Of a stretch of DNA of 64,000 nucleotides, positions 10,107 to 52,474 are shown one piece after another (within the stretch, counting starts at the first letter, position 1; every line of letters starts with the position of its first letter). Under the pieces are notes generated by a model. The model was given only the letters and a program-made list of their open reading frames with translations. It did not search any database and was not told the DNA's origin. A program made the position numbers and the translations under genes. Origin of the DNA: Batkoa obscura (lineage: Eukaryota). The stretch spans positions 1,922,001 through 1,986,000 of the forward strand of contig JASVEC010000002.1 in NCBI GenBank assembly GCA_030770535.1. Direction: 5' to 3'.

Positions 10107-10635
10107 TGAAGTTCTCTATGATCTTACATTTCTACTTTGCTCCCTATTCCACTTGATAAATAAATTGTTTGTGATATAATCAGTCTTCAATTTCTTAAAA
10201 ATAGAGAAATTAGTAATAGCTTTTATTAATTGGAAACTGATTCATCAACATCAATCCAAGTTTTATTAAACTAGATAAGTTTAGTTGTAATCCTCCCTTT
10301 TTAAAATGTGCTCATACAATAACTTGATCTTTGTTTTTTTGTGTTGTCTCCTGCTAAGCTATTAGTAACTTTATTAATTAAGATTGACTGGTTGATAAAT
10401 ACATAAGGTTAGCTACACAACTTGAAATTTCAATATTTAAGAATTTTAATTTATGTGTAGTTTTAAAATATCCATAACCTGTGTCTTTTTTTAAAAAAGT
10501 ATATAAGGATATCCCAAATTGGTTTCAGAATTCACTTAATCAAATTTTAAGTTAAATTTGTAAGTCCTTAATGTATAATTAATTAAATCTAAAAAGCTTA
10601 AAATTGAATAAGAAAAGTTCAATTCAAAAGACTTT

Positions 10636-11569
10636 GTGAAATCTGGTACTCAGTGATTAGAGTCAAAAGCAGTTTTTCCATGACTGACTAGCCACAAGTC
10701 GAAAGGTCTTAGTTTATGTAACTAAGATAGACTTGAATTATGAAGAATACCATGTAATAGGCTATGGACTATGTAAGGCAAATAGAATAGACAATACTAG
10801 TGTAAAACCTACGTAAAATATTATCAGAGAAATTCAGCAGCTTTATTGAAGGCATAATGTCAAGGAATAATCCAGTTAAAAAGCCTCAGGTTATTATGTT
10901 GAAGAATCTCTTTTATACTTCAACAAGTATGGGTATCAAAATGGGAGATAACGCCTTTTGGGACTACATGACAGAAATTCCCATAGTAAGTCAAAATAAG
11001 AGCATGTGGTTGATTGTGGCTGAACTTGGGAATACAACGACTTGAGTGATTGCTATATTATAATCAACCATAGAGCTGTGAAATATCGCTTTGTCAGTCC
11101 CATGGTTAATTATAACATAACAATCGCCTAAGCTGTTGTGTTCTTGAGTTCAGAGAAAACCAATCCCATGTTCTTAGTTTAATTTGATATGAGAATTTCT
11201 ATCTTCGTCTCAAAGAATATTCTCCCCTCGTTTTGATATTTATACTTATCGGAGTATAAAGGAGATTCTAAAACACAATAGCTCGAGGCTTTTTAACTGA
11301 ATTATTCCCTGATATCTCGAACATTTAATAAAGCCACTAAGTTTTCTTAATAGTATTTTACGTAGATTTCACATTAGTATTGTTTATTCTATTTGTCTTA
11401 TATAGCTTGTAACCTATTACGTGCTATTCCTCATAATCCAAGTCTATCTTAGTCACATAAGCTAAGACCTTTCGACTTATAGTGTAGTCAACCCAGCAAT
11501 AGCTGTTCTTGACTCCAAACCCTGAGTACCAGATTTCACAGAGCTGACAAAGTGGTATTGCACATGCCT
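10636..11569. other. ~934-nt full-length imperfect inverted repeat (rod-like hairpin), non-coding, flanked by AAAAGRCTTT direct repeats
   Basis: Left arm 10632-11078 pairs with right arm 11095-11543 around a 16-nt loop (11079-11094). Mismatches are almost all transitions. Flanks are AAAAGACTTT (10626-10635) and AAAAGGCTTT (11570-11579). Confidence 0.93.
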
Positions 11570-13079
11570 AAAAGGCTTTTATTTAAAAAGTTTATAAAAA
11601 TTAATATATAGATAGATACAAGAAACTATTAAATCTCAAGAGTTTTTACATTACATGTTTAAAAAAATCTATAAAATAATAGTTTAGATATTGATCTTAG
11701 TTTTTTTTATCAAGTATTATAGAGAAAATATAATTAACAAACACTTTAAAAATCTTTTGTAATAGAAAAATAGCTTTAAAGCATTAAGTAAAATAGAAGA
11801 TATTAATTAATTGATTTTAAAATCCAAGATTTTTTATAAATATAATAGAATTAATGACTTAATAATAATAATAAAATAAATATAGTTTTTAAAAAGTATC
11901 TATATTTTATTGAACATAATAACAAACTATATTATTACCCAGTATATCCAAAATAAGAAAAGCAACAGAAAAATTAGAAGTTTCAATATTTATTAAACTA
12001 GTAAGCAGCTTGTTAAATAATAGAAATCAATTGTGAAATATTTCTATTATTTGAATTATTAATAGCTAAGTTAATAAATAGTCAGATAGCAAGGAGTTAT
12101 GATAAGTAAAAACTATTATTATATTGCTTGTATTACATACAAATAAGTAATTATAGCTTTGGAGTTAAACACTCTTTTTCATGCAGCTGTTTATTAACTT
12201 AACAATACAACAAACAATAATGCAATTATAGGACTAAAATAATTTATTTATTTGATAGCAAATCTGCAATGTTGGCTATAAAGTAATCAATAATAAATAT
12301 TTCTTAAGTTTTATAGGAGCATCTATTTATTTACAATATTATAGCTTTAATTAATATCAATATATAGGTTATATTAGTAAAAACCTTGCTAATTCAAGAG
12401 CTTCTATTAAATTTAGTATAAGTTTTGCTAAGTTATAACGTAAATTATAATAAAATAATTTAAAATTGTGTCGAGTATGAGTACTTGCTTTTTAATGGAA
12501 GAATTTATAGATTTTAAGCAAAGTTTTAAAATATAAATTTTTCGAAATGGATAAAAAAATGAAACCAATTTGGACATCCCCATATGGATTAGTAAGCCAA
12601 TTTTTAGTTTTAAGTTCATCTTAATTTATTATTGTTCGAAGTTTAGAATTAAATTAATTGCATCATATCACCTAGAGCTCTTATTCATTAGGTTATTATT
12701 TACTCTATTGAAAATAAAAGTTATAACTTTTCGATGGCTTATTTAGTAAATAATTATATTTAAGACTGATCAAATAGCTGTAACATTTACCTATTCACTG
12801 AAATTCAATATATATAATAAATTTAATTCCAAGGATGGGTCACAATTTAATGCAAATTTGATCAAACAAGGTAATTGTAAAAATATAATTAATTACATAA
12901 CAAGAAATTGCCAAGATACCAAAGCCATAGAAAAGTTACAAAGAGACGTATATATAAGAAAAAAGAAGCATTCAACTTATATAATATTATTTTAAAATAA
13001 AATTTATTACTCTGGAAGTAATACTATTGATTACCATTAATTAATTTTTTATAACATACATCAAACCCAACTAACTAAA

Positions 13080-13841
13080 ATGATGAAACCAACCTTATTT
13101 CTAATCGCATTTTCTGCATTGATGAGCAATATTACAGCTTTATCTGGTTCTGGCCCAATCAGTACCCATCCATACCAAGAACAAAGATCCATTCTTGAAA
13201 CATCCCAAGTAGCTTGTGGTATTCCAGCATCTCAAATGAACCTTGATAGAGTTACTGCAGTACAAGGTTTAGACAAATCTCAATGTGGTACCTGCTTAAA
13301 AGTAACCTCAAAACAAAATGGTCTTGTATTATATATTGTTGCTGTTGATATTGGTGGACAAGGTTTGGATATGAATACTGTAGCATTTTCACAACTATCA
13401 GATGGTGAAACTACTGGCCATGTTGATGTAACTTGGGAATCTACCGATGCTGGTAAATGCGCTGGTGTAATTACTAGTGGCGATGCTGAATTACCTGGTA
13501 TGCGTACTGAGCCTGGAGCTGAAACCTCCGAATCTAAGCCTAAGAAGCCAGTAAAATCAGAAGATGAAGATGGAAATGGTTTTGAAGAAGAAGAAGAAGA
13601 AGAAGAAAGCCCAAAGTCACAAAAATCACATAAACCAAGCCATACACCAAAAGATATACCAAAGGGTACCTCAAAAGATGCTTCATACGATAAACCAACT
13701 GATGAATGTGGAGCTGGTATTTACAAGAAGTGTATCTCTGATAAGCAATATGTTTCATGTGTTCATAAACAAAGATTTATTGAGTCTTGTAATCCAGCAT
13801 TAACATGTAAAAATGCAGGTGATGCAATTCAATGTGTTTAA
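13080..13841 (+). CDS. Secreted expansin/loosenin-like (DPBB/RlpA-like) protein with acidic linker and C-terminal Cys-rich (CBM19-like) domain
   Basis: Signal peptide; ACG...CGTCLKVT...VAVDIGGQGLDMNTVAFSQL DPBB motif; 6-Cys C-terminal module. Confidence 0.8.
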   Translation: MMKPTLFLIAFSALMSNITALSGSGPISTHPYQEQRSILETSQVACGIPASQMNLDRVTAVQGLDKSQCGTCLKVTSKQNGLVLYIVAVDIGGQGLDMNTVAFSQLSDGETTGHVDVTWESTDAGKCAGVITSGDAELPGMRTEPGAETSESKPKKPVKSEDEDGNGFEEEEEEEESPKSQKSHKPSHTPKDIPKGTSKDASYDKPTDECGAGIYKKCISDKQYVSCVHKQRFIESCNPALTCKNAGDAIQCV

Positions 13842-15425
13842 TATATACTAACCATAGTGCTCTACTTTGACAATTGATTTGTTATAATAAAGATATTTAA
13901 TGATACTAGTTATTATAGAATTTTTACGTAATTAATATATGTTAATTGTTAAAGCATTAATAAATTCAATTTCAATATTAATTTTAGAGTAATTAATGTG
14001 GAATACTTAATGTATTATAAATATTATGTTACTTATGTTAATATATAACAAATCAAGTTTACTAATCTTGTAAAGATTAACCGAAAATAAAAGAAAAGGT
14101 TTTAGCATTTTATTCCTATCTATAATGATATTGAAATTCGCAGCTTAGATTTAGAAAAGTATATTTACATTAAAATTATCAAATCTTTATATTCTAATTT
14201 TATACTTATACTAAGATTGTTTTTGTCTGTATACTAATCTATAAAATAATAAGCTTTTTACTAATTCAAAATAAAAACCATCTCAATTTTAAAACATTAT
14301 TTTACATTACAAAGATAGTTGTTACTTGAATAGCTTGACCTACTTCCTTACCTCTTCATGCATTCTTCTAAACTTACCTAGTAGCTGGCTATCTATAAAA
14401 TGATTAGTAAGCTATACTGAGTAACTCCTTTAATGGAGTATCTTGGTATCGGCTTAAACTCATAGTCACTTTATTTATATTCAAACAGTTTATTCTGATC
14501 AAACTTCTTATTAAAAAGATGTATCTAACACTACGATAAAATGTTATATAAACGAGTTAACATTTTTGTCATATTTTAAATTCGATCTATTAACTTTATT
14601 TTTGTTATAGTATATAGTATACAAATTTGTAAAATGTTTTATCATGTTTTAAATGAAATAAATTTATACTGGCTAAATAGTAATTTATCCATAATATAGC
14701 GAACTCTTTATTCATTTTACAGGAACTATCAATTATTAAAATTTCTACTTGGTTGAATATTTAAATTTTTTATGAAATTTAGGTTTGAGTTATAAGTAAA
14801 GTATTGATTTATATCTTATATGAAACCTTGTATAATAATTTATTAAAAATCTTCAGATTGTGCAAACAAGACACTAGAAGAACTGTCAAATGAGGATGCC
14901 TTTTTTTAGATGAATTAGGAGCTAGTCGAATAAAAGAAAGGACCTAAAAAATAACTTGGAAATCAATCAACTGGGTTTCGTCTGTTTTAGACTTGAGTAG
15001 GTTTAATTTCATAGAGTCAGACTCTAAATTATACAACCCAACCCAAGAGTGAAAAAGAGTGGAAACTATGAAGTCGTCACCAATTTGATTACTTGGTGAC
15101 AATGGAATGTCTTTTGTTTAAGAAATTCACTAACTTCTTCCTCCCTCAATAACACCTGAAAAAAGGAAAAAGTGATGAAACCAAAGAAAGCACCCTTGAA
15201 TATTAAAGTTTAATAAATTGTTTTATTAGTCTAAAAGCATAAGAGTTATGTGATTAATATACAAGCATTTTTAAGCTTTATAAATTATTATATCCCACTA
15301 AAAAGCACTACACAGTACTTTTATATTATTATTTAGAAAAGCTAGCAATAAGGTGTAGTTTCTAGTCTAAAGTTTTTTATTTTGAAAATACAATAATTTA
15401 TAAATTTGAACTATTTTAATTAATT

Positions 15426-20025: not shown

Positions 20026-20472
20026 CTAAATTTCCACCATTCCGCCCCAAGGACATTTATTTCCATTAACTTTATCATAACAATCATATTTATTCCCATT
20101 TTTTTGCCAACATTTAGGACAATTTTCTTTAGCTGGATAGCATAAAGTACCCATATTACCTCTGTTACAACTATCTGCAGGTGGCTTATTACCACCACCA
20201 CCTTGTTTTGAGCGATCAAACATACCATTCCAGTTATCACATTGAGTACCTGATTTGTAGTCGTAACAATCATATTTACCACCATTTTCGATCCAACAAG
20301 GGGGGTATTTTCCAGATGTATAAGCCCATCCATATTTTTGATTATTAGCAATTAAACATTTGCTATTATCAGGAGCACGTGTAAATACATGTTTAAGTTT
20401 ATTAATCAAACTGAAACTTTCAATGCTTCCAGTGGCTAATAAGGTGAATCCAACAATGCTAGTCAATTTCAT
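20026..20472 (-). CDS. Small secreted cysteine-rich protein with an internally duplicated module
   Basis: Signal peptide; two copies of CWxxNGxKYDCYDxxxGxxC separated by a Gly/Pro linker. Confidence 0.8.
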   Translation of the reverse strand: MKLTSIVGFTLLATGSIESFSLINKLKHVFTRAPDNSKCLIANNQKYGWAYTSGKYPPCWIENGGKYDCYDYKSGTQCDNWNGMFDRSKQGGGGNKPPADSCNRGNMGTLCYPAKENCPKCWQKNGNKYDCYDKVNGNKCPWGGMVEI

Positions 20473-21142
20473 TTGATTCTTTAATTTACAAAAGGTACTA
20501 CTGTTTACAAATAGTTAATAAATATTTTTTTAATAATTTATATAAGAAATTTGTTTCTTTATATACTTTTAATTTTTACTAACTACCTGAATTCTTCCCT
20601 CCCTTCCCCTTCAAAATTTATCCCGCTTCCGTCCACTTTTCATTACTCTTGATAGAATTTGAAAATTCCGAAAATTGAAATTTTAAAGGTCTTTTGTATA
20701 GAAATTCTTCCGCCATTTATTACTCTAATAAATCTAGGTTTGAATAGGAAGCTAATATTGGACATTTTCTAAACTAATCTGATTTTTTGGGCAGATCTGC
20801 TTCGATAAATGTATAAAATTGTCATGATTTAAAATATTTAATAGAAATATTAATTTACATTTAGATATTAAAAATATTAAGTATCATAACTATATTATGT
20901 TTATTTATTGAAGACTATTTTAGTATTTAATATAGAATAAATAAAAAATAAAGAATGTAGTTAGATCATAAACTCAAAATAAAGATATCAAGAATTTATT
21001 AAAATTAAATTGAAAATTTTTCAACTAAAATTAAGATCATAACATCAAGTTCCATTTTCCTTTATTTGGTCCATTTTTTATATGTTAAAGAATAGAAAAT
21101 TTCTAAATATTTCAAAAAAAACATAATTAGATTAAACTAAAT

Positions 21143-21240
21143 AGGGATGTTTTTTTATGTTCAAGAATTTTACTAACAATTTTTCTACTCAAATAGCGCT
21201 TAAAAAATGGAAAAATAATGCAATCAAAAAAAACATTCCC
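21143..21240 (+). mobile_element. MITE family A copy
   Basis: AGGGATG...CATTCCC with AAAT on both sides. Confidence 0.85.
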
Positions 21241-21412
21241 AAATGTTACTTTTTTAATTTTAATTCATTTTCAAACTCGAAAAAAACGGAAGCTCATCAG
21301 AACACCAATAAAATACAAAACTCAATTTTGTATAAAAAAATAGAACTCCCATTTCAATTTTATTTGATTAAATAATCAATTTCACAGAAAATAGAAAGAA
21401 AAACTTCAAAAA

Positions 21413-24822: not shown

Positions 24823-25249
24823 CTTTTTTACTATTTATTGAAAATAATAATAATAATAATAAAGTTGTTTTAATCTTTTTACATGTTGCTTTTACTACTT
24901 TTTTGATTACTCATTAACTTTCTCAGAACCAATAATATTCAGTTATTAAAAAGTGATGATTAGCTGTAATGTCATTTAATTAAAGTGAATATAGTTTATA
25001 TACATTTATAATCAATTTAATATTAACTCAAAATAAACTTATTTTTATTAACGTTTTGTCCTTTTATAACTTTAGATGCATTTCTTTTGAAAATTATCAA
25101 AAGCTAATCTTCAATTCATACTAAAAACATGATATGGAATCTCATTCAATATTTTAAAGGAATTAAGATTTTTATTCATCTCTTTTTAATTTTCTAATTT
25201 TTTAATTGTAAAAAAACAATATAACATATAATAACGAATTTTATGAGGA

Positions 25250-26812
25250 ATGGATACTTCAATCACAATCGACAATCCAGATATAGCATTAGAATTAACA
25301 GGTCAATCTAAACAAGCTAATGGAGCAATCAAAGAAACAGAGATAACAGAGGAAATCAATAAATCCAACGATATAACAGAGGTCCCCCCAACAATTAATA
25401 TAATTCAAGAAATAACCTTAGTAAATGGGAATGAGAAAAGTAATGAAACAACAAAAGTGCCTTCAAAAATTACAATAACCAACACAACCGAAGAAACAGA
25501 AATATCGGATCAACCTGAGCAAACTGCTGATATAGTTGAAACAACTTCAACAAATATAATAAAAAATAGATTCCAAGAAAAAGAGATATCAAATCAATCT
25601 TATCAACTCAATTCTACAACAGAAATACTTCGAAAAATCATGACTAATAACTCAATTGCAGAAACAGAAACAATAAATCAAGTTGACCCACCTAATAATA
25701 ATTCAGAATTTCCCAACTCAACCCAAACACTCAATATCGATCAATTGATAACTCTAAAATCCCCTACTAAACGTAAACGTCGTGGTAATCGAAATCGAGA
25801 AGAAAATATATTAAACATCTTTCCATCTCTAAATCTTGGAAAGTCGCTTACTATCTTAAATTCAATATTAATCCGAATTCATACTTTTCATTCCCAAACG
25901 ATATTTAAAAGTAATATTCTCTCGTTAGTTGCGGGTTTATTTTCTAGAACTCAACTAGTTGACTTAGGGTTTGAATTTTCCAATTATCAATATACCGAAG
26001 CTAAAAAAATTGCTTTAGATAAAAAATATATAGAATATCAATCTCATCAAAGTAATAAAATCAAAAAAAAGAAAGATACATTGAAAAATGTGGCGGAAAT
26101 TATTGATCGATTAGATATTGAAAAAATAATCAAATTAATTGAAGGTGTAGTGGACCGAGTTTATCAATTTCATTGTCAATGTAAGATGATATTTAAAGCT
26201 AGTTTTTTGGCTTTGTTAGCGGATAGTTTTAAAAGAAATCAACTAAATCAATTAGGTTTTGAGTTTTCTAATGCTCAATATACACAAGCAAAGAAAATTC
26301 AGGCTGAAAAGGAATTTGTTTTTGAGATTGAAATTAAGCAGAATAAAGAAAAAAAATTGTTATTAAATAAAAGAGAAAATAGTTCAATGAACAAGGAAGC
26401 AAGTTTTGGGTTGGATGTAGATAGTGATGATACATTAAATAAGAAGCAAAAAATTGAGAATTGTTTATTTAAAAAATTAGTACTATTAAAATATTCCAAT
26501 TCAGTAAGAGAATATAATAGTGTTGTTAATGATAATAATTATAATGTTATTACTCCTATGATTTTAACTAGTAATAATGATAATAGAAATAATATTAATT
26601 CAACTAATACTAGTACTACCATTATCAATAATGAAAATAACAATAAGAATCAATCTAATTCTATAGTTTCAAGTAATAACGATATTATCACTACTGATGT
26701 TATTACTAATAATAATAATAACAGTAATAATAATAATAATAATAATAATGAAATTATTTCTACTATTAATAATATAAATATTATTAACACTTCATTACAC
26801 CAACAAAGATGA
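25250..26812 (+). CDS. Uncharacterised protein with two copies of an ILxLVAGxFxRxQLxxLGFEFSNxQYTxAKK domain and an Asn-rich tail
   Basis: 520-codon ORF; internal repeat of a ~60-aa domain shared with the next gene; basic NLS-like KRKRR. Confidence 0.75.
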   Translation: MDTSITIDNPDIALELTGQSKQANGAIKETEITEEINKSNDITEVPPTINIIQEITLVNGNEKSNETTKVPSKITITNTTEETEISDQPEQTADIVETTSTNIIKNRFQEKEISNQSYQLNSTTEILRKIMTNNSIAETETINQVDPPNNNSEFPNSTQTLNIDQLITLKSPTKRKRRGNRNREENILNIFPSLNLGKSLTILNSILIRIHTFHSQTIFKSNILSLVAGLFSRTQLVDLGFEFSNYQYTEAKKIALDKKYIEYQSHQSNKIKKKKDTLKNVAEIIDRLDIEKIIKLIEGVVDRVYQFHCQCKMIFKASFLALLADSFKRNQLNQLGFEFSNAQYTQAKKIQAEKEFVFEIEIKQNKEKKLLLNKRENSSMNKEASFGLDVDSDDTLNKKQKIENCLFKKLVLLKYSNSVREYNSVVNDNNYNVITPMILTSNNDNRNNINSTNTSTTIINNENNNKNQSNSIVSSNNDIITTDVITNNNNNSNNNNNNNNEIISTINNINIINTSLHQQR

Positions 26813-26959
26813 CAAATTCAGATGAAGCAACCAATTAAATTTCATAATTTGCAAAGAGGGTGTCCAATTTTAAGCATAGTTTTTTAAACAACTCTATTTT
26901 TATTTATTTTGAGCACAGTTCAATTTTATTCTTTCAGTTTCAACAATTTAATTTCAATA

Positions 26960-28102
26960 ATGGAAAATACAATTATAGCTCAACCTAACAATAATCCCAA
27001 GGCTATAGCACCAACACTTTCCAAACCTATTAAGAAAGTGAAGCCAAGAATTGAAAACATAATGACAATATTACCCAAATTAAATTTTGAAAAATCAGTA
27101 TTGATGTTAAATGAATTAGTTAATAGGGTATATGAATTACATAGTCAAAATCAAAGCAAATATAAAAGTAATATCCTAGCCTTAGTAGCTGGCTTATTTT
27201 CACGAAATCAATTAAACACTTTGGGATTTGAGTTTTCTAATGGACAATATACTTCGGCTATTAAAATTCAAAAAGAAAAAAGATATTCTACTTCAATAAG
27301 TAGCACAAATGTAATCAAAAAGAAAAAAAAAGGTGTTAAAATATTGGATAAAAAAGTATTAGAATATATGATTAAACAATCAGAATTAAATTTAAAAAAA
27401 AAATGTTCTTGGAATGGTGAAAAAGTTCCATGTTATTTTTTATTAAAGCCAAAAAGTCGAATTTATCTTGAGTTAAAACAGAAGGGTCTAATTGATATTT
27501 CAAGGGCTTATTTTTATCACCTTATTCCTAAATATTTTAAAACGAGTACGGAATTACTTATGAAAAAAAGCAGAGTGATGAGTAAGAATTTTACCCAAAG
27601 TCATAGTCAAAGTACTGTTATTAATAATGATAATAATAACAATGATTTTAATAACAACACCAATATAAACAAAAGTATGACTACTTTTTTACCTAATCTA
27701 TCACAACTTCCACTTTCACTTCCACCACAATCAATTTCAAATAAGCCAATGTATTATCCAGAATCAACTACTATTAGTGCTTATAAACAATATACTACAT
27801 TTGGTTTTAATTCATCAAGTAACCGGTTACCACCATCTAATACTATCTCATCTTCATCATCAGCAAATAATAAATATTTTAATGCGGTGGGCTTTAATTC
27901 ACTTTCATTACCGAGTTTGAATTCGATTCCATTACCCATCTCTAATGCTAATTCATATTTTTTAAGTGGAGATAATTCGAATAATCAATATCATCAGTTT
28001 TCAATAGAAGAAGCTGGAAATAGTAATGAATTACAATTACCCCCACCGTTAGCTATAAATCAAGGGTTGAATTTTAACATGAATTTAAATCTAAGACAGT
28101 GA
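26960..28102 (+). CDS. Paralogous protein with one copy of the same domain, a YFLLKPKSRIY...ISRAYFYHLIPKYFK segment and an N/S/P-rich tail
   Basis: ORF 26909-28102, first ATG at 26960; shares the LGFEFSNxQYT domain with the upstream gene. Confidence 0.75.
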   Translation: MENTIIAQPNNNPKAIAPTLSKPIKKVKPRIENIMTILPKLNFEKSVLMLNELVNRVYELHSQNQSKYKSNILALVAGLFSRNQLNTLGFEFSNGQYTSAIKIQKEKRYSTSISSTNVIKKKKKGVKILDKKVLEYMIKQSELNLKKKCSWNGEKVPCYFLLKPKSRIYLELKQKGLIDISRAYFYHLIPKYFKTSTELLMKKSRVMSKNFTQSHSQSTVINNDNNNNDFNNNTNINKSMTTFLPNLSQLPLSLPPQSISNKPMYYPESTTISAYKQYTTFGFNSSSNRLPPSNTISSSSSANNKYFNAVGFNSLSLPSLNSIPLPISNANSYFLSGDNSNNQYHQFSIEEAGNSNELQLPPPLAINQGLNFNMNLNLRQ

Positions 28103-28423
28103 AAATGGGGAGAATTGGGAACTAGATTGGGATGGAAATTTTAAACTTGTATTTTTTATTATTTATAAAATTAACTTTGTATATTTTTAGTAAATAAAAT
28201 ATTTTTGTTTGATGTTATTTTCAATCATTTTAATAATAAACTATACTTCTAAAAAAGCATTTTTTTATTTTAAAGTTTCAAAACGAATCTGATAAAAAAA
28301 AAGATCTAAAAATTTGATAAGCTTCAAAAAAAAAATTTAGATAAAAGATGACTTTAATATAAGCTTTGAAAAAGAAGCAAGATAAAGAAATAAAAAGATT
28401 AAAATTCCATCGTAATGAACAAC

Positions 28424-29225
28424 TCAAAGGGCATAACTAATCAAAAGATACTCTTTAGATTGATTATAGACGCTAGGATGAACAGATTGAAAACCAACAT
28501 AAAAAAGGGCCTTAATAAGATCAGCTAAAAAATATTAAATTATTAAAATTAAAATGCTATAAATAAAAACTTACCAATATCAGGCGAGTCTTTATGCACA
28601 CAAACCACAATCTTTTCACAATTCAATTGGTTTTCTGCTAATTCTAAAATGGCGGTGATACTAAAAATCCTAATTAGTCCATTAATACTTCACCTATAAA
28701 TAATTTACCAAGTACGAAAGTCTTCATCCGCCCAAGTATCAAAGCAAGGTGGTTGAAAGAAGAGGGTAGAATTGGTAGTAAAACCAGACCAAAGGTTGGG
28801 GCGTAATTGGTCATTGGATCGAGAGATAATGGTTAAATAAGCGTCAGGTGAAATCTTTGGGAGTATCATTTTGGCCAAGGATTTACCTAACTTAGCAATC
28901 GATGGCTTAGCTAACTCTTGAGTTTCATCCGGTGGAATTTGGTCAATAGTAGTCACGTCAAACCCACCACGGTACTGCGTCCGCGACTATTAATAAATAT
29001 TAGATACATTGATATCTTGAACTAACCAAATGATTTATTTTTCTACTTACGTGAGTAACAATAACGATGGTGACTAGATTCGTTAGCACGTTTTAAATAA
29101 CAGATGGCTAATGTTTCATTTAAGTTTTCATTGTAAAACTTCATTGAAGACATAGAAGCCATCTTATTTAACGGTGGTATTATACTCTCATCACTACTAC
29201 TACTATTATTATTAGCTATCATCAT
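28424..29225 (-). CDS. OAZ1: Ornithine decarboxylase antizyme, +1 programmed ribosomal frameshift; 4 exons
   Basis: After splicing intron 28987-29050, ORF1 (67 codons) ends CCG TGG TGG GTT TGA. The +1 frame continues DVTTIDQ... to ITAILELAENQLNCEKIVVCVHK...DLIKALFYVGFQSVHP, the antizyme C-terminal signature. Confidence 0.92.
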
Positions 29226-30255
29226 ATTGATTGAAATTGATACGGGTTTAAAATTGATTTATAAGTTTGTTTGAGTTTATTGATATAAGTTGTTATTAAA
29301 AATAGAGTATTGAGCTTAACTTTGATTTTAAATTATCTTTACTTTGTATTGAAGAAGAAGAAAATAATAAAAGTATTAAAAATTTAGCCAGATTGAACAA
29401 TTGAAAGCTTTAAAAAATTATTTAACTTAAAGTTTAAAACACAAAAATGTTATATTCAGTTATGAAAAGTTATCAGTTTTTTTTTATAAAATATATAAAA
29501 AGAAAGAATCAATTTTTTTATGCATTTTGGTTTCTACTGTTGAAAATCATGAATTGTTACATTTGGTATATTTATTCACTTTGATTGGCTAGCATAAGTT
29601 TTTTAAGCAATAAGCAATGGCTTAGTTAAGACAAATGTAGCCAATGAACTGTTTAATTCCCCCGTTATTCTTTAACCCTAATTTATTTTGGACTTTATTG
29701 TTACAAGTTTGTATGTTTGTAGTAAATTTTCCTAGTTTATCCAGATGTATTCCTTTAATCAATTAAAACTATTATCAAGATTCGATATTATCAAATAAGT
29801 TCAATAAAATTGTAAGTTTAAAATTTCAAATATTGAACTATTTGTTAATTGCATATATTATTATTTATTACTATTTTACTATTTTTAAAACTAAACAAAA
29901 ATAATGACTTGGAACTGTTAGAAAAATGGCTCTTAACTGAAGCGTAGAATAATAGAAATTCTAGATTTGGACAAATGGAACTAAAATATGCTAAGCCAAA
30001 AAGTTACACACTTTGGCTTTTTTTCTCGTTTTTTCAACTTAAGAATGACTAAATTTCAAGTTATCTTATCATACAAAATGTTTACTATTTATTTTTTAAG
30101 CAATATTAAGCTATCTACCTGCATTATTTTAGGCTATTGTTGAACCATATGAAACTATCTATTAAATTATATTATAAATATATTTAAATAAAAATTTAAA
30201 TTAATTGAGCTCATTTTCAAGTTTTACAAATTATGTTAAATATAAAAAAGGATAT

Positions 30256-30353
30256 GGGAGTGTTTTTTTAACTTCATTATTTTTTCCACCTTTTAAGCCC
30301 TATTTGAGCGGAAAAATTGTTAGTAAAATTCTTAAACAGAAAAACACATCCCC
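30256..30353 (-). mobile_element. MITE family A copy
   Basis: GGGAGTG...CACATCCCC with ATAT on both sides. Confidence 0.88.
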
Positions 30354-30556
30354 ATATTAGTATATTAGTATACTGGAATCAAGTGTTATTTTTCGTTTTA
30401 TTTATTTGTTCATTATTTTTATATATAGAGATCGAGTTTTTTAGGGAAGTATTCAGATTTTAATACTGTTTAGATATATATATTTGAAATTAATGTTTAA
30501 TTTTTAATAATATAATAAGTTCTATTTATCATTTGTTGTTATTTACATTGCTTTAA

Positions 30557-31216: not shown

Positions 31217-31519
31217 AAATATTTCTTTTAAACTTAGTCGTAAAGTTACACATCTTTCTATTTAAAAAACTGAATGTATCAACAGCGCTTATTTTAATTA
31301 ACTTATATTAGGAGTATAAATATGATACCTATAGTATATTAATTGTTTATTTTTTAAGTCATCTTAAAGTCACTGTTCAGAGTTTTATTAATATTTCAAA
31401 TAACACAATTAATATTGGTTATATTGAAATTACTCAATAGCTAACATTAATTTTTTTATTGCAAATCAATTGCCAAAATAGAATACTATAGATGATATAG
31501 ATGATATAGATGGTATAGA

Positions 31520-32251
31520 TTAAACACACTGAATTGCATTGCCTGCATTTTGACATGTTAATGCTGGATTGCAAGACTCAATAAATCTTTGTTTGTAAAC
31601 ACATGTAACATATCGCTTATCAGAAATACATTTTCTATAGATACCATCTCCACATTCATCTGTTGGTTCTGTATTTGAACTTGGAACTGCAGTAACCAGT
31701 TCGTTATATTTTGTGGTTTGTTTTAACTTTACTTGATCTTTGACACTATCATTACTTCCATCTTCAGATTTAACCGAGTAGCCTATGTGACTTGGATTAC
31801 TAGGGTTACTACTGCTTTCAGGTTGGGTACGCATACCAGGTAACGAACTATCACCACTAAAAATTACACCAGCACATTTACCAGCATCGGTAGATTCCCA
31901 AGTTACGTCAACGTGGCCAGTAGTTTCACCATCTGATAGTTGTGAAAATGCTACAGTATTCATATCCAAACCTTGTCCACCAATATCAACAGCAACAATA
32001 TATAATACAAGACCATTTTGTTTTGAGGTTACTTTTAAGCAGGTACCACATTGAGATTTGTCTAAACCTTGTACTGCAGTAACTCTATCAAGGTTCATTT
32101 GAGATGCTGGAATACCACAAGCTACTTGGGATGTTTCAAGAATGGATCTTTGTGCTTGAAAGGCATGAGTAGTAATTGCACCAGAACCGGATAAAGCTGT
32201 AATGGTGCTTGTCAAAGTAGAGAATACAACTAAAAATAAAGTTGAGTTCAT
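31520..32251 (-). CDS. Second secreted expansin-like (DPBB + CBM19-like) paralog
   Basis: DPBB region identical in protein to 13080-13841; different signal peptide and linker. Confidence 0.8.
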   Translation of the reverse strand: MNSTLFLVVFSTLTSTITALSGSGAITTHAFQAQRSILETSQVACGIPASQMNLDRVTAVQGLDKSQCGTCLKVTSKQNGLVLYIVAVDIGGQGLDMNTVAFSQLSDGETTGHVDVTWESTDAGKCAGVIFSGDSSLPGMRTQPESSSNPSNPSHIGYSVKSEDGSNDSVKDQVKLKQTTKYNELVTAVPSSNTEPTDECGDGIYRKCISDKRYVTCVYKQRFIESCNPALTCQNAGNAIQCV

Positions 32252-33019
32252 TATTAATTACTTGGGGTATTTATATATTATATAGATTAATTATCGACAA
32301 ATTAATGGTGTTACTTCCAGAGTAATAATTTTAATTTCAAATAGCAATAATTAGATTGAGTGATTTCTTTTTTACTTATATATACTTCACAAGATAACTT
32401 TTTTTATGGTTTTAGTATTTTAATGGCTTCCAATTCTTTAATTAATTAGATCCATATTATTAACATATTTGTTTAACTTTTTATTAAGCCATACCCCTTT
32501 TCAGAGCCAAGTTTGTGATATATAATTTCAATTACCAACGACTGTTCTAGCAGTTTAATTAATATTGAATAGAAATAAATAAAAATACTTACTAAATTAG
32601 TTATTTAGAAATTTGTTTTTTATCTTTCAACAGAACAATTAATAGTTTAAAGAACAAGAGTTTCAGGTAGCATGCTCTCTTTCTAAACCAACCCTAAATT
32701 ATTTAAACATCCATCAATTAAAGTGCCTTTGAAATATCAGGTAATAAGTACTACTTTATATCTAACAACTAGTCAAATTTGATTAATGTGGTTGTTAATA
32801 ATTTGCTAGAAAGAGATACAAAAAAAAGGTCAAGAAGCAAGAAGAGTAACTAATGTATAGTCAATCATAAAAATGTAGTCGCACTGAAGTTAAAATTCAT
32901 ATTTGCTACAAAACATTTAATATAAATCGCATTGAGTCAGTCATAGTTTCTAGTCAAAAAATAAAAAGCTGTCAGTTTTTCGATCTCATAATTTTTTTTT
33001 CGAAGAACTAACCTTCTCC

Positions 33020-34158
33020 TAAACACATTATTTGTAAAGCGAAATATAAAGTGTAAGCAAAATCTTTGGTGGGAAATATTGTAAAAATACTAGAAAGAAA
33101 GGTAGTATTAAGCTAGAGAAAGTAAGCCTAATTTGGAATTACTGTTTTGAAGAGGATTAAATGGGGATGTGTTTTTGTATTTAAGGATTTTACTAACAAT
33201 TTCTCCACTCAAACAGCGCTCAAAGGTGGAAAAAGTAATGAAGTCAAAAAACATCTCCAAATGATAAAAGAAAGCTTCAAATTGAGTTTTATAGAATCAA
33301 TTTACATTAAATCAAGCAAAATAAAACTACAAAAAAGTTAATACTATTTCTAGTTAACAATTCTATATACTGAAGTAAAGAGACAAAGGACCTGTCGAAT
33401 TGATGAAAGAAGGGTTGACATGCAATAGAAGAATTGTAGACCACAAAATTGTGATTTACTAAAGTATCCGTTATTTATCTTTCCAATATACTTTAATCGT
33501 TATTTATAAATAGTTTGATTATGTTTATTTTATTTTTATTACTTGAATAGTTTATAATCAATTAATACTGTTTTATTGAGTATATTTTAGTTCTTTGTTT
33601 AGTGTCGTTTTAATACTTTCCTACTATTTATAGGTAACAAACCAATACCTATGATTTTTAAGTTTTCAATATAATCTGGGACTAAAATAATAAGCATAAT
33701 TTGAAAATACACAAATAGATCTTACTACTGTTCTATGAACTACTGTAGTATTTGATAAAAAACTTCATAAGCAAAATGCTAATGAAATAACACTAATAAA
33801 CAGCTTTAGCTTAATAAATTTGGAGCATATAGAGAGATAAAGGCTGAGAAATTAGGCATCCTTGGGCACTCAAGTTTTAGTAAATTATTTAGTTTGAAAT
33901 CTGTTAACTCCAAATTAAAGGTATTACCAATCATCTCATTATTGTATATGTTACTCATATTAGTACGAATAATCAACTGAGTGAGATTAAATTGCATATT
34001 TAGAAAGTTTAAAAAATCCAAATTAAAAGGTGAATCAGCTAGTCCAATTTCAATATGATTAATATTAAATCTAGTGGATAGATATGTAAATTGTTTCAAT
34101 GAAAAGTAATGAACACACTTGAAATGCTTTAATCTTTTCAAATGTGTAAAAATATTTA
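33020..34158. repeat. Right copy of the 1.14-kb inverted duplication; contains MITE A at 33163-33258 (AAAT TSD)
   Basis: Reverse complement of 8967-10106. Confidence 0.95.
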
Positions 34159-34234
34159 TAAAATATATATATCTAACCTTAAAGCAACCCAAAACCAACC
34201 TTAATGTTAAGACTAATACTATATTTAATTTCAT
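33806..34234 (-). pseudogene. Truncated or chimeric F-box/LRR copy: new hydrophobic N-terminus fused to the 3' part of the 8021-9319 gene
   Basis: From NIFTHLKR to the stop it is identical to the F-box gene C-terminus. The F-box itself is absent. Confidence 0.7.
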
Positions 34235-34679
34235 CTTAAATTTTTACTTTAAATACATAATGGTATCATAGCCATTTTTTTATTTTAATTGACATTTTTC
34301 AATTAAAACAGTTTTTTCAAAAGACTATAATTAAACCTTCGAAATTCAACTACATACTTTGATGGTCCTAATTAAACAAACAATTTTAATCAAATTGAAT
34401 ATTATGAAATTTACTTGGTGCTAAAAGGTTAAAAGTGACATTTGAGATTAATGTGGTATTCACTTAAAAAGACATGACTATAATATTTAGTAGTACCAGT
34501 TAGGTTTATAATAATATAAATATAACTTTTCTTTATTATGAGTTATTGTTGATAACGAATAAAATCATCTAAAAAAAATTAAAATTAAAATATACAAAAT
34601 TATCATATAAAATGGTAAAATAACAGTTTATTGAGTACATGAAAACGTTCCATATGATAAACTTAGAACATACCTCTTA

Positions 34680-35280
34680 ACAAACCTAAAACGCTGTATT
34701 TTATTAGTGAAATGTTTAATTGATATTGTAAATTTACTTTACTTAACAACAAAGCCTTAATAGGTTCCTTGAGATAAAAATAGCTCCATACTATTGACAG
34801 TTTCTCTCTTATCTTCGTATTCCCTAATAAAATCAATTGCTTTACCAACATCAATAGCCTTAGGGCTATGTTGGATAAAATAGCGTTTAACTTCATTGGA
34901 GGGTAACTTTTTTATTAAAATCAATTCTTTTCTAAAATCTTTTTTGGTTTGTTTGACTCTTACTTTCATTTGTTCCAATTCAAGCTTAAATTGTTTATAT
35001 AACTCTCAAGCGGAATATGGTTCTCCTTCACAAATAAAAGTGGAGCAGGTTAATGTAGCAGGAGGGAGTTCATCTAAAATGAACATGGAACTCTTGTCAT
35101 ATTGGTAGTTATCATCTAATTGATTAAAAGACACTATCTTTTTTGATTTTTCATCACAATCTTTTCCTTAGCCAAATCATTGCTAGTTTCAAGAGCAAAA
35201 ATAATAGGGCTATGGCCAGTTAAGTTGTTACTACTTATAGGAAGCACGTCACTATTGTTTCTTTAAGGTTTGCTAGCATT
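34680..35280 (-). pseudogene. Degenerate gene copy of unknown family (paralog of 39268-39880)
   Basis: LTCSTFICEGEPYSA*ELYKQFKLE..QMKVRVK shared with the 39-kb copy; internal stop and frameshift. Confidence 0.6.
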
Positions 35281-35660
35281 AAGCTAATTAACTTTTCTGC
35301 TATCCATTAGCTAAAAGATCTAGGTTTGAATGTTTTGGATCTCAGAATGTTTTTTTCCAAGGTTTTCTAAAGCATTGAATTCTGGAACTGAGTATTTAGT
35401 ATAGCATTAGTAGTTGTTGAGCTTCGTTATTGTATTTTAATTTTGATATTAAATTGACAAAGTTGAAACTTTGAATTTATAAAAAAGAATTCTTAAGATT
35501 AACTTCTATGCTTAAATAGTTTGAAAACAACTTAAATTTCCGCCTAAACCCAAAGTTATCAATTGATTACGCAGTTTAAAAATTTAAAAAATTAAAATTA
35601 AATTTGGAATTAAAGAAACAAAAACTCAAATTCAAAATCTTTTTTTATTTCAAAAAACCA

Positions 35661-38630: not shown

Positions 38631-39267
38631 ATTGAGGTCTAAGGAGCATCAATAGGAAGTTTAACTCTATATTGTGGCCTAGAGATGATTAGCTTATGTA
38701 ATCAATAAAAAAATTGTTTTTCTAATTGATTATTATGTTTCATCACCGACTATATATTATTTTTGAGTTTTATAAGTTTTATTGTTTTTCTACTTTCAAT
38801 TTAAGCTTGAAATTGAAATAAATTGGACAAGGTAGTTCTCGATCTGAGGTTTGAAGTCTAGTTTGATCCAAAATAACCTACAGGCCACTGATAGATTAGG
38901 CTATAAGTATTAAGATAACTTTTATAAGACACTGTAAAAAAACTAGAAAATTAAATTAAAATAGTATATTTCAATTAAAGATATATAATATAAATATATT
39001 AAGCCAATAGATAATACCATCTTTAAACATTAGAAATAATGACTAAATTTCTTTTTTCACTTTTCTTTATAAGCTTAAGCTAAAATTTTAACTTTATTAA
39101 TTCAATAAACTCAAAATATAATATCAACACCAATTTTCAACAAACTACCCTTAATAATACAAATAATCAAATTATTGAGCTTTAATCATTTAGAAAACCT
39201 TCCAAGCGAACCTTCTGAAATCCATAGCAGTTGAAATTCGATAATATCAACCCTGTCTCTTTTAGAA

Positions 39268-39880
39268 TTGGTAAATGGTACAAAAGTTGATGCGTTTAAA
39301 GCTAGAAAATCTCCAAGAAACTACAGTAATGTGTTTCATGTGAGTAGTACCGATTTAAATAGTTATAACTTTACTATCTTTGTTCTTGAAGCCAGTAATG
39401 ATTTGATTGAGAAAAAACTTAGTTTGAATAATCAATTATATAACAATTGCCGCTTTGATGAGAATTACATATCCATGATTGACGAGACCCCTTCTCTTAC
39501 TTTAACCTGCTCCACTTTTATTTGTGAAGGAGAACCATATTCCGCTTGAGAGTTATATAAACAATTTAAGCTTGAATCAGAACAAATGAAGGTAAGAGTC
39601 AAACACACCAAAAAAGGTTTTGAATAAGAGCTTTCAGTAATGAAAAAGATGGGCTCCAGTGAAACTAAGTACTATTTTATCCAGAATAACTCTAGATTTA
39701 AAGTTATCGATATTCATAAAGTAATTGAACTTATTAGGAAATATAAAGATGGGTGAGAAATTGTTAGTACCATATAATCATTTTTATCATTTGATTCTTT
39801 TTAATATTTTGATATTGAAGATAATAATTTTATCAATAGAATTACTTCATTAATATGATTTCATTTAGGTTTGTTAACTA
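39268..39880 (+). pseudogene. Degenerate gene copy of unknown family (inverted paralog of 34680-35280)
   Basis: Same peptide; several stops downstream of the shared TGA. Confidence 0.6.
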
Positions 39881-40200
39881 GTAGTGTATTTTAGGCTTAT
39901 CTCATGTGGTGCTTTTATATATTAAATAACCCACTATATTAGTATTTCAAATTATAACTTCATATGTTTTTAATTATTATTATTTTGTTATTAATAATAA
40001 TGCCATTATAATTAGTATTAAATATAAGTCCTACTTTTCATACTCTGATAGGCCTATTGCTATTAAATATTCTACTTTGCATTTTGAAATGAATATCAAA
40101 TCAACATTAAATAACCTTAATTAAATTATAAGATGTTATAAGTTTTAGTATCAATTAATTCTAAACCTTGCTTTGCCTATTTAATCTAAATATAGTATAT

Positions 40201-40294: not shown

Positions 40295-40363
40295 ATATAA
40301 AGATTACTTTTTCATATTCTAATTAACTAAGATTCGTTTATTCCTTATTTATTTTCCAAGAAA

Positions 40364-42355
40364 TCAATTTTTTTGAAAAAAATCATCAGCAATTTGTTTC
40401 CATTGCTCATATGGGAAAAATATAATTCTTGGTCCTGGATAAGGTTTGTGGTAGCTAGCTCTAATCCAAGTAAATTCTAAAGGTCTATTACCATGTTTTT
40501 CACTATTTAATTTTGAAAAATTTCTTGTAGAATAAGCTTCACGAATTGTTAATGAAAGTAAAGCTTCAACTGGGAATTGCTTTGGTGCATCTGGATGATC
40601 TCTTAACCCAAGTTCATCTAAATCTTTTAATAAATGCTCAAAATCATAAACAGTTCCTCCTTGATTAGATGCAGCAGTAGCTTCCTGCCCTTGTATCCCT
40701 CCCATAGCATACGTAGTGACTCCATGCATCTCTTGAAGTCCATTGACTAATAAAGAACAAGTTGAATAGCATATAGAATTAGTAACCACAGCTAGTTTGT
40801 TTAATGGAAATGGAGGTAAAAGGCTATCTGATTTATTATTATATTCCTTATTCATCATCAAATGTAATGGATTTGGTCCACATTGATCGTCAAATAAAGA
40901 AGTATAATGTGCTGAAGCACCTCCTCTAAAATATCGATTGTTACCAACAAAATCTTCACTATTACTAAATGGACGTCCATTTGGTTTAAGCCAATAGTTA
41001 AAGTTGAAAACACTTCCATCTCTATTGTCTCTATCTGCCATCATTAACATTAATTTAGATGCACGCATATCTGTATCAAAATATCTTTTATCAGAGTGTG
41101 GAAATAAATAGTTCAATATATAGTATCCCCAACAGATTACTCCTCCTCCATTATTACTAACATCTAAGATCAATTTTTCAGCTCCTTTGCGTTTGAGTGC
41201 ACGGAAACCATTAGCTGCTTCTTTCAAAAAAGCTTGTTCACTACTCGCTACAAAACTAGCAATTGTCATTACACCTGTGCTATTATTCACCATCCAAGTT
41301 TGTATTACTTCACCTGAAGTTAATGGATTTTTTAATGGATCTTCATCCAAAGTTTTAATAGCAGAAGTCAACGGATGATCTAATTTTTCATAAACTACTT
41401 TAGGTACTTGCATTACTTTAGATTGAGGTAATTTAGGATCAAATCCAGGTTGAGGGGATTTAATTCGAAATTCTTTATAAGCACAATATTTTTTATAGAA
41501 CTCTTTACTATCTTTAAAATCCATCGGACTAGAAGCTAAATAGGGTATTGTAACTGTTTCACTACCTCCTTTTTTAAGTTTAATGGTGTAAGTTATTGCT
41601 GATTTATTAGGTATAGAAACAGTTGCAGTAAATCCACCATTAGCAATACCCCATTTACCACCCCTCTGCATTACTCTAGCCAAAGCTAAATTAATTCTTG
41701 AATTGATATCTTTAGATACACCAATCATAGTATTAGCATAGCGAATAAAATAATCTAATGGAGGAATGCCATCGATTAATATAATCTCACTACCAGCATA
41801 CCTTTTAATATCAAACCCCATTTTATTCCAAGTTTCTTCTAAGCCATCACCTAATGTAAATTTAGGTAATATTAAAAACTTTTGACCACCAAAATCCTCA
41901 CTTACAGTAACAATTGGAAAGGGTTGACAAAATATAAATGAGGAAAAACAACCAGAAGAATAACCTGTGTGCCCATCATTCAATTGATGGAATAAATTAA
42001 CTAAATCATTTTGAAAGTTCATTTCATACTGGTAGCTTTTATACCCAATTTTACGAATTTCTTCAATCAAATCTAATTTCAAAGGTATTTTAGGTTCTGG
42101 CGAGGATTTAGCTATATCTAAAAATGCATAGAATGGAAGAGCTTTCTTTAAGGTATCTAAAGTATTCTCACGTACTGTTTCATTAAAAGGGAACTCTTTA
42201 TAACATCTAATAGCTTCATCATAAGTCACTATCTGTTTACCAGCAATTAAATAACAACCATCATGGGGATCTGTAGACGAAAGAAAATGCTGACGAGAAC
42301 CATTTACATTTAAAAACAAATAAAATAAAATTCCTAAACCTAAAATTAGCTGCAT
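40364..42355 (-). CDS. Secreted S41-family (CPAF/tail-specific-like) serine peptidase, intronless
   Basis: Signal peptide from MQLILGLG; LNDGHT, KLILDVSNNGGG and CYSTCS motifs. The longer ORF start at 42559 lies outside the region shared with the paralog. Confidence 0.87.
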   Translation of the reverse strand: MQLILGLGILFYLFLNVNGSRQHFLSSTDPHDGCYLIAGKQIVTYDEAIRCYKEFPFNETVRENTLDTLKKALPFYAFLDIAKSSPEPKIPLKLDLIEEIRKIGYKSYQYEMNFQNDLVNLFHQLNDGHTGYSSGCFSSFIFCQPFPIVTVSEDFGGQKFLILPKFTLGDGLEETWNKMGFDIKRYAGSEIILIDGIPPLDYFIRYANTMIGVSKDINSRINLALARVMQRGGKWGIANGGFTATVSIPNKSAITYTIKLKKGGSETVTIPYLASSPMDFKDSKEFYKKYCAYKEFRIKSPQPGFDPKLPQSKVMQVPKVVYEKLDHPLTSAIKTLDEDPLKNPLTSGEVIQTWMVNNSTGVMTIASFVASSEQAFLKEAANGFRALKRKGAEKLILDVSNNGGGVICWGYYILNYLFPHSDKRYFDTDMRASKLMLMMADRDNRDGSVFNFNYWLKPNGRPFSNSEDFVGNNRYFRGGASAHYTSLFDDQCGPNPLHLMMNKEYNNKSDSLLPPFPLNKLAVVTNSICYSTCSLLVNGLQEMHGVTTYAMGGIQGQEATAASNQGGTVYDFEHLLKDLDELGLRDHPDAPKQFPVEALLSLTIREAYSTRNFSKLNSEKHGNRPLEFTWIRASYHKPYPGPRIIFFPYEQWKQIADDFFQKN

Positions 42356-52292: not shown

Positions 52293-52474
52293 TTTCTTAA
52301 TAAATAAGGATTAAAAGCCATTATTAAACTTTTGTGATGTGAGAAAAAAATGTTTTATATTATTAAATAATTTGAGTTATTAGATTTTAGACAAGTAACT
52401 AAATCAATCTTGTAATATTTAGTATTTAATTTAACTAAAACAAAATATTAAATACAAGAATATAAAAAAACATT

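What the first reader, a model, noticed from the sequence alone, without database searches (positions are those of the whole stretch)
25250..28102. Tandem genes that look like domesticated transposase DNA-binding domains, possibly cognate to the MITE
Seen: three copies of a ~60-aa domain (ILSLVAGLFSRxQLxxLGFEFSNxQYTxAKK) across two adjacent intronless ORFs, basic NLS-like patches and low-complexity N/S/P tails like activation domains. The second gene continues with PCYFLLKPKSRIYLELKQKGLIDISRAYFYHLIPKYFK. From memory of motif shape, this resembles the pre-catalytic region of Sola2-like transposases (YL...LY..F......IS.S.F..L.P), but the Cys cluster and DDD core that normally follow are replaced by the tail, and no TIRs flank the genes. 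Inference: transposase-derived transcription factors or repressors. If they bind the family A TIRs, the MITEs would form a dispersed regulatory network near secreted-protein genes.
Basis: inference. Interest (0 to 1): 0.7.

Follow-up and report, generated by a model that had tools for sequence, protein, structure and literature searches.

The report
Fungal genes from Sola2 transposase heads
Two neighbouring genes of an AT-rich fungus keep only the front part of a Sola2-type jumping-gene enzyme, joined to new low-complexity tails, and likely now serve the host as DNA-binding regulators; whether they would bind the small Sola-type elements scattered nearby is untested.

Summary
ORF A (520 aa) has two copies and ORF B (380 aa) one copy of an ~80-aa unit; B adds a second subdomain. 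Relatives continue into TDxCxxC and a D(82)D(40)D core with an integrase/Mos1-type fold. Their motifs match the published Sola2 transposases DFa-2 and PPa-1. No core lies in any frame of the window, and no inverted repeats flank the genes. B's model gives a helical HTH-like domain plus a winged-helix-like domain (Z only 4-6). B is transcribed without introns in three RNA runs. Diverged alleles show 18 synonymous and 15 non-synonymous changes among 33 listed (pN/pS 0.2-0.4), and synonymous sites between the units are near saturation. Against this, two single contigs each carry a one-base loss, and no orthologue outside close kin was found. Other Zoopagomycota carry the same head-plus-tail design, with a conserved pair in Dipsacomyces and Martensiomyces. 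The ~100-bp MITE has AWWT 4-bp target duplications, so it is Sola-type, but nothing ties it to these proteins. Verdict: Sola2 origin shown, domestication likely (~0.65), MITE network speculative (~0.2).

The parts
25250..26812 (+). ORF A, 520 aa: acidic S/T-rich leader, basic patch, two Sola2-derived helical (HTH-like) units, N-rich tail; no winged-helix part, no catalytic core
   Evidence: the same 520-aa protein is in NCBI nr
25769..25783 (+). KRKRR basic patch (NLS-like, inferred)
   Evidence: sequence
25796..26029 (+). unit A1 (aa 183-260)
   Evidence: profile of the transposase-only alignment A4, E 1.2e-13
26078..26317 (+). unit A2 (aa 277-356)
   Evidence: same profile, E 4.3e-10
26318..26809 (+). 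A tail, 27% Asn, with an AAT repeat
26813..26959 (.). 147-bp spacer; crossed unspliced by one RNA contig
   Evidence: run X4 record 14
26960..28102 (+). ORF B, 380 aa: whole pre-catalytic Sola2 head (aa 30-197) plus a 183-aa N/S/P tail
   Evidence: profile E 5e-30, match ends at PKYFKTST; transcribed in runs X4, X6, X12
27047..27286 (+). unit B1, five-helix domain, HTH-like (best matches Spo0J Z 5.6, KorB Z 4.2)
27287..27328 (+). flexible basic linker leading into KKKKKGVK
   Evidence: pLDDT under 50 at model residues 85-94
27329..27550 (+). second subdomain, winged-helix-like (FurB Z 5.8, AhrC/ArgR 4.7, P-element transposase part 4.3)
27551..28099 (+). B tail, in place of TDxCxxC and the DDD core; alleles show 15 synonymous and 14 non-synonymous changes and in-frame 6- and 12-nt deletions
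21142..21243 (+). nearest upstream copy of the ~100-bp MITE (AAAT/AAAT flanks), 4.0 kb from A
30253..30355 (-). nearest downstream MITE copy (ATAT/ATAT flanks), 2.15 kb from B. Other copies: 9866, 15108, 15425, 30557, 31124, 33161, 40200, 42735, 43532, 43756, 44060, 49532

Best explanation
Both ORFs carry the pre-catalytic head of a Sola2 transposase of the DFa-2/PPa-1 type, lack its Cys cluster and DDD core and end in low-complexity tails, and they are likely host-kept genes whose predicted HTH-type domains would bind DNA as nuclear regulators. Shown: the origin, the loss of the core, the lack of terminal repeats, and transcription of B. Inferred history: a Sola2 gene lost everything behind the winged helix and read on into new sequence, which gave B. 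An old duplication and internal repeat of its first subdomain gave A. Inferred mechanism: B would grip a site descended from Sola2 ends using HTH, basic linker and winged helix, as Tc1/mariner heads do (recalled). A would bind a repeated half-site with its two units. The disordered tails would recruit transcription or chromatin factors. The proteins cannot cut or join DNA, so binding would either regulate nearby genes or block Sola2 ends from an active transposase.
For: Of 21 non-self phmmer hits, 11 go on to the TD(M)/TDxCxxC motif and 4 of these reach DFK(E/Q)N. Three (P0009, P0010, P0020) turn into a tail at the same point as B, and 7 end or diverge earlier. P0029 (Smittium culicis) and loci L001 and L002 have the full D(82)D(40)D core; L002 also has a TIR of at least 62 bp. 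The L002 model matches retroviral integrases, Mos1 and Metnase at Z 10.6-11.6, rmsd about 3 A over 142-168 residues for the catalytic-domain matches. Motif order matches DFa-2 and PPa-1 in supplement S10 of PMC3627910 (compared by eye). A profile built with no window sequence hits B at E 5e-30 and A at 7e-21; the next hit is E 0.56. The B model has pLDDT 86.6 and HTH/wHTH-type neighbours. Three runs splice the neighbour's three introns, cover B with no joint in it, and X4 has zero depth in the spacer behind B. Among 33 listed allele differences, 18 are synonymous and 15 non-synonymous: pN/pS 0.22-0.41, p 2e-5 to 0.008. Between units pS is 0.55-0.73 and pN 0.27-0.38. Dipsacomyces P0009 and Martensiomyces P0010 share the head and a C-terminal motif (45% over 325 aa).
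Against: Two allele contigs each lack one base in a homopolymer: X12 at 27394 (depth 9.5) and X6 at 27535 (depth 33). These would stop B after aa 161 and aa 200; they may be errors or real loss-of-function alleles. Only 40 of 134 difference rows were shown, and only 4 of the 33 used lie in the head domain. pN/pS of 0.2-0.4 is moderate. Both proteins are single-member clusters, and no orthologue from another genus turned up. B's branch is long (2.18). Fold Z-scores are under 6, which the tool calls common, and Foldseek found nothing at E 0.001. Low dN/dS between units could partly date from transposase ancestors. No binding, localisation or protein evidence exists.
Confidence: 0.65

Rival explanations
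1. The ORFs are decaying or weakly constrained remnants of a Sola2 transposon, transcribed but dispensable.
For: Two independent one-base losses in allele contigs; no orthologue found in another genus; long branch; moderate pN/pS.
Against: Open frames of 520 and 380 codons in DNA of 23-28% GC. No trace of the core or TIRs. The tail, which has no transposase homology, still shows a synonymous excess (15 vs 14, p 0.0002-0.02) and in-frame 6- and 12-nt deletions. Units are near saturation at synonymous sites yet keep the motif.
Confidence: 0.2
2. The proteins act mainly as dominant-negative blockers of Sola2 transposition, binding element ends (including the MITE) without cutting, and have no role in host gene regulation.
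For: The whole predicted end-binding head is kept in B and the core is lost. The window holds 14 copies of a Sola-type MITE, so Sola-type elements were once mobile here.
Against: MITE copies are diverged (about 77-89% in blastn pairs), so they look old. The tails are constrained, which a pure blocker need not have. No autonomous partner could be searched, as no genome is held.
Confidence: 0.1
3. A and B are exons of one gene, or cargo of a larger non-autonomous element.
For: The spacer is only 147 bp and the ORFs are co-oriented; one RNA contig runs across A's end, the spacer and B.
Against: That contig is unspliced and no joint was listed at the spacer in three RNA runs. No flanking inverted repeat over 11 bp. 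The neighbours are ordinary spliced genes (PIG-U upstream).
Confidence: 0.05

Closest known systems
Sola2 transposases DFa-2 (Dictyostelium fasciculatum) and PPa-1 (Polysphondylium pallidum), PMC3627910
   Same: Relatives of ORF B show the same motif order: FY..vP, TDxCP.C, H, DFKEN..G.gp.E....Y, WSD...HF.S, YHGKS..D.HF (by eye). These elements have 4-bp AWWT duplications, as the window's MITE does.
   Different: The window's ORFs stop before TDxC, have no core and no TIRs, carry new tails, and in A repeat only the first subdomain.
Domesticated transposase DNA-binding genes (CENP-B/Abp1, THAP, ZBED6, FHY3/FAR1, SETMAR); recalled, except search listings of ZBED6 PMC2780926, SETMAR PMC6326780 and FHY3/FAR1 PMC13306707
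   Same: Transposase DNA-binding head kept in a TIR-less, transcribed gene with signs of purifying selection.
   Different: The donor here is Sola2. The catalytic domain is wholly gone. Conservation across species and DNA binding are not shown.
Uncharacterised Kickxellomycotina proteins KAJ1957300.1 (Dipsacomyces), KAI8320045.1 (Martensiomyces), PVU98393.1 (Furculomyces/Smittium)
   Same: Same Sola2 head, same cut point after P-K-N/Y-F/Y-K/R, low-complexity flanks.
   Different: Unrelated tails. The best tree puts B with transposase P0008 (84/82, long-branch warning), and 0% of 200 bootstrap trees group the four; the AU test does not reject one clade (p 0.37).

Membership tests
Sola2 transposase (as an active enzyme) | DDD catalytic triad in an RNase H fold | tested here: not met
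   Absent from both ORFs and from all six frames of the window; present in relatives P0029, L001, L002.
Sola2 transposase (as an active enzyme) | Gene flanked by TIRs and 4-bp TSD | tested here: not met
   No inverted repeat over 11 bp around A, B or A+B; nearest MITE copies are 4.0 and 2.15 kb away.
Sola2-derived protein | Significant homology to the N-terminal part of DDD transposases | tested here: met
   E 5e-30 (B) and 7e-21 (A) with a transposase-only profile; P0008 34% over 160 aa, E 3e-15 pairwise.
Sola2-derived protein | The donor transposases belong to Sola2 rather than another superfamily | tested here: met
   Motif-by-motif match, by eye, to DFa-2 and PPa-1 in the Sola2 alignment of PMC3627910 S10. 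No scored comparison was possible; Pfam has no hit for P0029.
Domesticated transposase gene | Intact frame and transcription | tested here: met
   B covered by contigs of three spliced (RNA) runs. For A: run X4 holds 0.91 of the words of 25200-28200, which needs most of A (inferred).
Domesticated transposase gene | Purifying selection after loss of mobility | tested here: inconclusive
   pN/pS 0.22-0.41 on 33 listed sites, mostly in the tail, but two one-base losses in allele contigs.
Domesticated transposase gene | Syntenic orthologues in other species; single copy | not testable with these tools
   No genome is held and there is no eukaryote genome collection. Alleles 6-10% apart exist in two runs, but their synteny was not seen.
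Domesticated transposase gene | Sequence-specific DNA binding | not testable with these tools
   Only a predicted HTH/wHTH-like fold, Z 4.2-5.8.
Sola-type MITE | 4-bp AWWT target-site duplication | tested here: met
   8 of 14 copies have the same AWWT 4-mer on both sides (7 flagged, one read). Four are non-palindromic (AAAT x3, ATTT x1) and direct, so they are not part of the TIR. AWWT is reported for Sola1 (PMC3845634) and for Sola2 DFa/PPa (PMC3627910).
Sola-type MITE | Short TIRs with G...C ends; 5'-GRG for Sola2 (recalled from Bao 2009, not read) | tested here: inconclusive
   Ends read GGGGATGT.../...ACAYYCCC. The GRG rule was not found in the library, so Sola1 and Sola2 cannot be told apart.
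Cognate MITE-protein pair | MITE ends match the ends of the donor transposon | tested here: inconclusive
   The MITE model has no hit under E 1 in the four transposase loci L001-L004, but these come from other organisms; the window's own donor element is unknown.

The most novel reading that the evidence does not exclude
Zoopagomycete fungi have repeatedly, or once long ago, turned the head of a Sola2 transposase into a family of transcription regulators. In this species ORF B (with A) still recognises the ends of the ~100-bp Sola-type MITE, which makes hundreds of MITE copies a dispersed cis-regulatory network over secreted-protein genes.
Probability: 0.2. Interest if true: 0.8.

Novelty: new variant of a known kind. 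Interest (0 to 1): 0.52.

Why it matters
Domestication of transposase DNA-binding heads is well known, but three literature searches (listings only) showed no Sola-derived host gene. A survey of fungal genomes found Sola2 only once, in Aspergillus flavus (PMC5751038, passages). Here a DFa/PPa-type Sola2 lineage appears in Harpellales, with head-plus-tail derivatives in at least three zoopagomycete lineages. That points to an overlooked transposon clade and an unnamed regulator family in early-diverging fungi. A candidate protein and a candidate site family sit in one genome, so the idea that transposons supply both a regulator and its sites can be tested with one binding assay.

Tried and rejected
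Pfam gave no significant family for A, B, the 21 hits or P0029. PDB sequence searches gave nothing relevant. The word-indexed protein search found only B itself; nothing among proteins of 864-2465 aa (weak evidence); and 5 hits with alignment A2, where candidates were capped. ESM Atlas: B scored 0.84 (lead only) with TM up to 0.50; P0009 scored 0.92-0.93 to unnamed eukaryote clusters. No relatives were found in prokaryote genomes or viral contigs. Foldseek on the B model had no match at E 0.001. Rfam found nothing in 9000-50000. A frameshifted catalytic core behind B was rejected. An A-B splice was not seen. A single origin of all tail-bearing forms was neither shown nor rejected. The tree left out A1, A2, P0005, P0014, P0018, P0025, P0027-P0029 and P0031-P0033 (short, redundant or internally deleted). 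MITE nearness to secreted-type ORFs gave p 0.011 with an incomplete gene mask and p 0.02-0.09 with a fuller one; it is not counted as support. Run X11 gave mostly low-complexity matches. Exact look-up of 8 other window ORFs found none, so the host lineage is inferred only. The founding Sola paper (Bao 2009) was not held. PMC11105155 had no occurrence of four terms.

Full report
Setting. The window is AT-rich (GC 0.17-0.38 per kb) and eukaryotic. It has short GT-AG introns (48-64 nt in the gene behind B) and fungal-type genes: cerato-platanins, a GMC oxidoreductase, S41 peptidases, PIG-U and UNC45. No whole genome is held. All named relatives of the finding's proteins are Zoopagomycota; that the host is one too is my inference.

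Observation. ORF A (25250-26812, 520 aa) and ORF B (26960-28102, 380 aa) are as described. An ~80-aa unit occurs twice in A and once in B, at 42-59% identity (tblastn E about 1e-20). B continues with a basic linker and a second subdomain ending in FYHLIPKYFK, then a 183-aa N/S/P tail. A has no second subdomain (third profile domain score -2.3).

Origin. phmmer of B aa 30-217 against 1.84 billion representatives gave 23 hits, 2 of them the window's own. Of the other 21, 11 continue into TD(M)/TDxCxxC and 4 of those reach DFK(E/Q)N. Three switch to a low-complexity tail where B does, and 7 end or diverge earlier. The L002 model (pLDDT 67) places these aspartates on two strands and a helix. It matches retroviral integrases, Mos1 and Metnase at Z 10.6-11.6. 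The motif order is that of the Sola2 transposases DFa-2 and PPa-1 in supplement S10 of PMC3627910, compared by eye. A profile made only of these transposase fragments hits B at E 5e-30, ending at PKYFKTST, and A at 7e-21; nothing else in six frames scores under E 0.5. So the ORFs are heads of a DFa/PPa-type Sola2 transposase, and the core is gone, not frameshifted.

Fold. The model of B aa 30-197 has pLDDT 86.6 and pTM 0.46: two well-folded parts joined by a flexible linker. Against 48,161 chains, the second part matches winged-helix domains (FurB Z 5.8, rmsd 2.2 over 56 residues; Zur, ArgR, Spo11, a P-element transposase segment at 4.2-4.7). The first part matches Spo0J (Z 5.6, rmsd 3.4 over 60) and KorB (4.2), among unrelated helical proteins of similar Z. 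These scores are middling, and Foldseek found nothing significant. The HTH reading rests on them together with the position in the transposase.

Host gene or remnant. No inverted repeat over 11 bp flanks the genes. Thirteen runs from 9 studies hold part of the stretch, 7 of them half or more; one may be the window's source. Of 4 runs laid on 26770-29150, three (X4, X6, X12) skip all three introns of the neighbouring gene and so are RNA. They cover B with no joint; X4 has zero depth at 28130-28289 and crosses A's end, the spacer and B unspliced. X6 and X12 carry alleles 6-10% apart from the window. The tool showed 40 of 134 difference rows. I used the 33 in B and dropped 1 in the spacer and 6 in the neighbour. 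They are 18 synonymous and 15 non-synonymous, pN/pS 0.22-0.41 by transition weight, p 2e-5 to 0.008; in the tail alone 15 and 14, p 0.0002-0.02. Tail deletions of 6 and 12 nt are in frame. Between units, pS is 0.72-0.73 (A vs B) and 0.55 (A1 vs A2), with pN 0.27-0.38, so the copies are old and constrained. Against this, 2 of the 12 indel rows shown (of 14) are one-base losses in B's frame in RNA runs: X12 at 27394 in an A10 run (depth 9.5) and X6 at 27535 in a T4 run (depth 33). They would stop B after aa 161 and aa 200. Each is one contig and they differ between runs, so error is possible, but real broken alleles are not excluded. No orthologue from another genus was found, and both proteins are single-member clusters.

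Other fungi. P0009 (Dipsacomyces), P0010 (Martensiomyces) and P0020 (Furculomyces/Smittium) have the same head, the same cut point and other tails. P0009 and P0010 form a 100/100 pair and share a C-terminal motif. In a 26-row, 170-column tree, B joins the transposase fragment P0008 (84/82, flagged as a meeting of long branches). The four tail-bearing proteins form one group in 0% of 200 bootstrap trees, yet the AU test does not reject one clade (p 0.37). Independent captures are favoured but not shown. An earlier AI note (e1-7497380, unchecked here) describes the same design in arthropods.

The MITE. A profile from 8 copies finds 14 (E up to 3e-4); one weak hit and four reverse-strand self-hits were dropped. 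Eight of 14 have the same AWWT 4-mer on both sides, and four of these are non-palindromic, so they are target duplications. One copy is a recent duplicate with one mismatch, and five are degenerate or ambiguous. AWWT duplications mark Sola1 (PMC3845634, passages) and the Sola2 DFa/PPa elements (PMC3627910, passages and S11), so the MITE is Sola-type. The nearest copies are 4.0 and 2.15 kb from the genes, and the MITE ends do not match loci L001-L004. Thirteen of 14 copies lie within 2 kb of six ORFs that I judged secreted-type by eye, against 59% of non-genic positions; by clusters p is 0.02-0.09. The cognate link is open.

Mechanism. Most likely B binds DNA in the nucleus through HTH, basic linker and winged helix, at sites descended from Sola2 ends, and its tail recruits cofactors; A binds through two tandem HTH units. 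Origin, loss of catalysis and transcription of B are shown. DNA binding, the target site and the regulatory role are inferred. Odds: host regulator 0.65, remnant 0.2, pure transposition blocker 0.1, one gene or cargo 0.05. Binding to this MITE with a regulatory effect: about 0.2.

Known work. Papers seen: PMC3627910 (passages; supplements S5, S10, S11), PMC3845634, PMC5751038, PMC4455052 and PMC5753468 (passages), PMC11105155 (term search, no hits). Bao et al. 2009 is recalled, not read. Searches (listings of 20 of 31, 20 of 166 and 15 of 54 papers) showed no Sola-derived host gene; subscription journals, Repbase and bioRxiv supplements were not searched. PMC5751038 reports a single fungal Sola2 case with its profile. 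Verdict: a new variant of a known kind, with a new donor superfamily and host lineage.

Noticed in passing
P0009 (KAJ1957300.1) and P0010 (KAI8320045.1): A likely orthologous, unnamed Sola2-head gene in two Kickxellales genera: 57% identity in the head, no core, and a shared C-terminal PFP-PMPM-W-WL-D motif. It is a cleaner domestication candidate than the window's genes.
   Followed up: partly
L002:1-2904: Near-complete Sola2 element from a metagenome: one long open frame (573 codons stop to stop, probably with a short 5' intron) and TIRs of at least 62 bp holding a palindrome; the contig ends inside the TIRs.
   Followed up: partly
P0029, P0015, P0017, P0024: Sola2-type transposases in Smittium culicis, S. 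megazygosporum, S. angustum and Furculomyces boomerangus, annotated as hypothetical.
   Followed up: partly
window 10632-11543: A 912-bp imperfect palindrome (75% between arms), with no long ORF.
   Followed up: no
window 8961-10109 and 33017-34164: A 1.15-kb inverted duplication at 99.4% identity carrying the 3' part of an F-box gene and one MITE copy.
   Followed up: no
window 40337-42423 and 50227-52315; 12847-13856 and 31505-32487: Inverted gene pairs: two S41 peptidases (96%) and two cerato-platanin-like genes (78% overall, 91% in the domain).
   Followed up: no
window 34572-35472 and 39082-39986; 48676-48899 and 57635-57859: Two further decayed repeat pairs (68% over about 900 bp, inverted; 76% over about 225 bp, direct), unclassified.
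   Followed up: no
window 20026-20472 (-): A 148-aa secreted-type, Cys-rich ORF with two similar halves and no Pfam hit.
   Followed up: no
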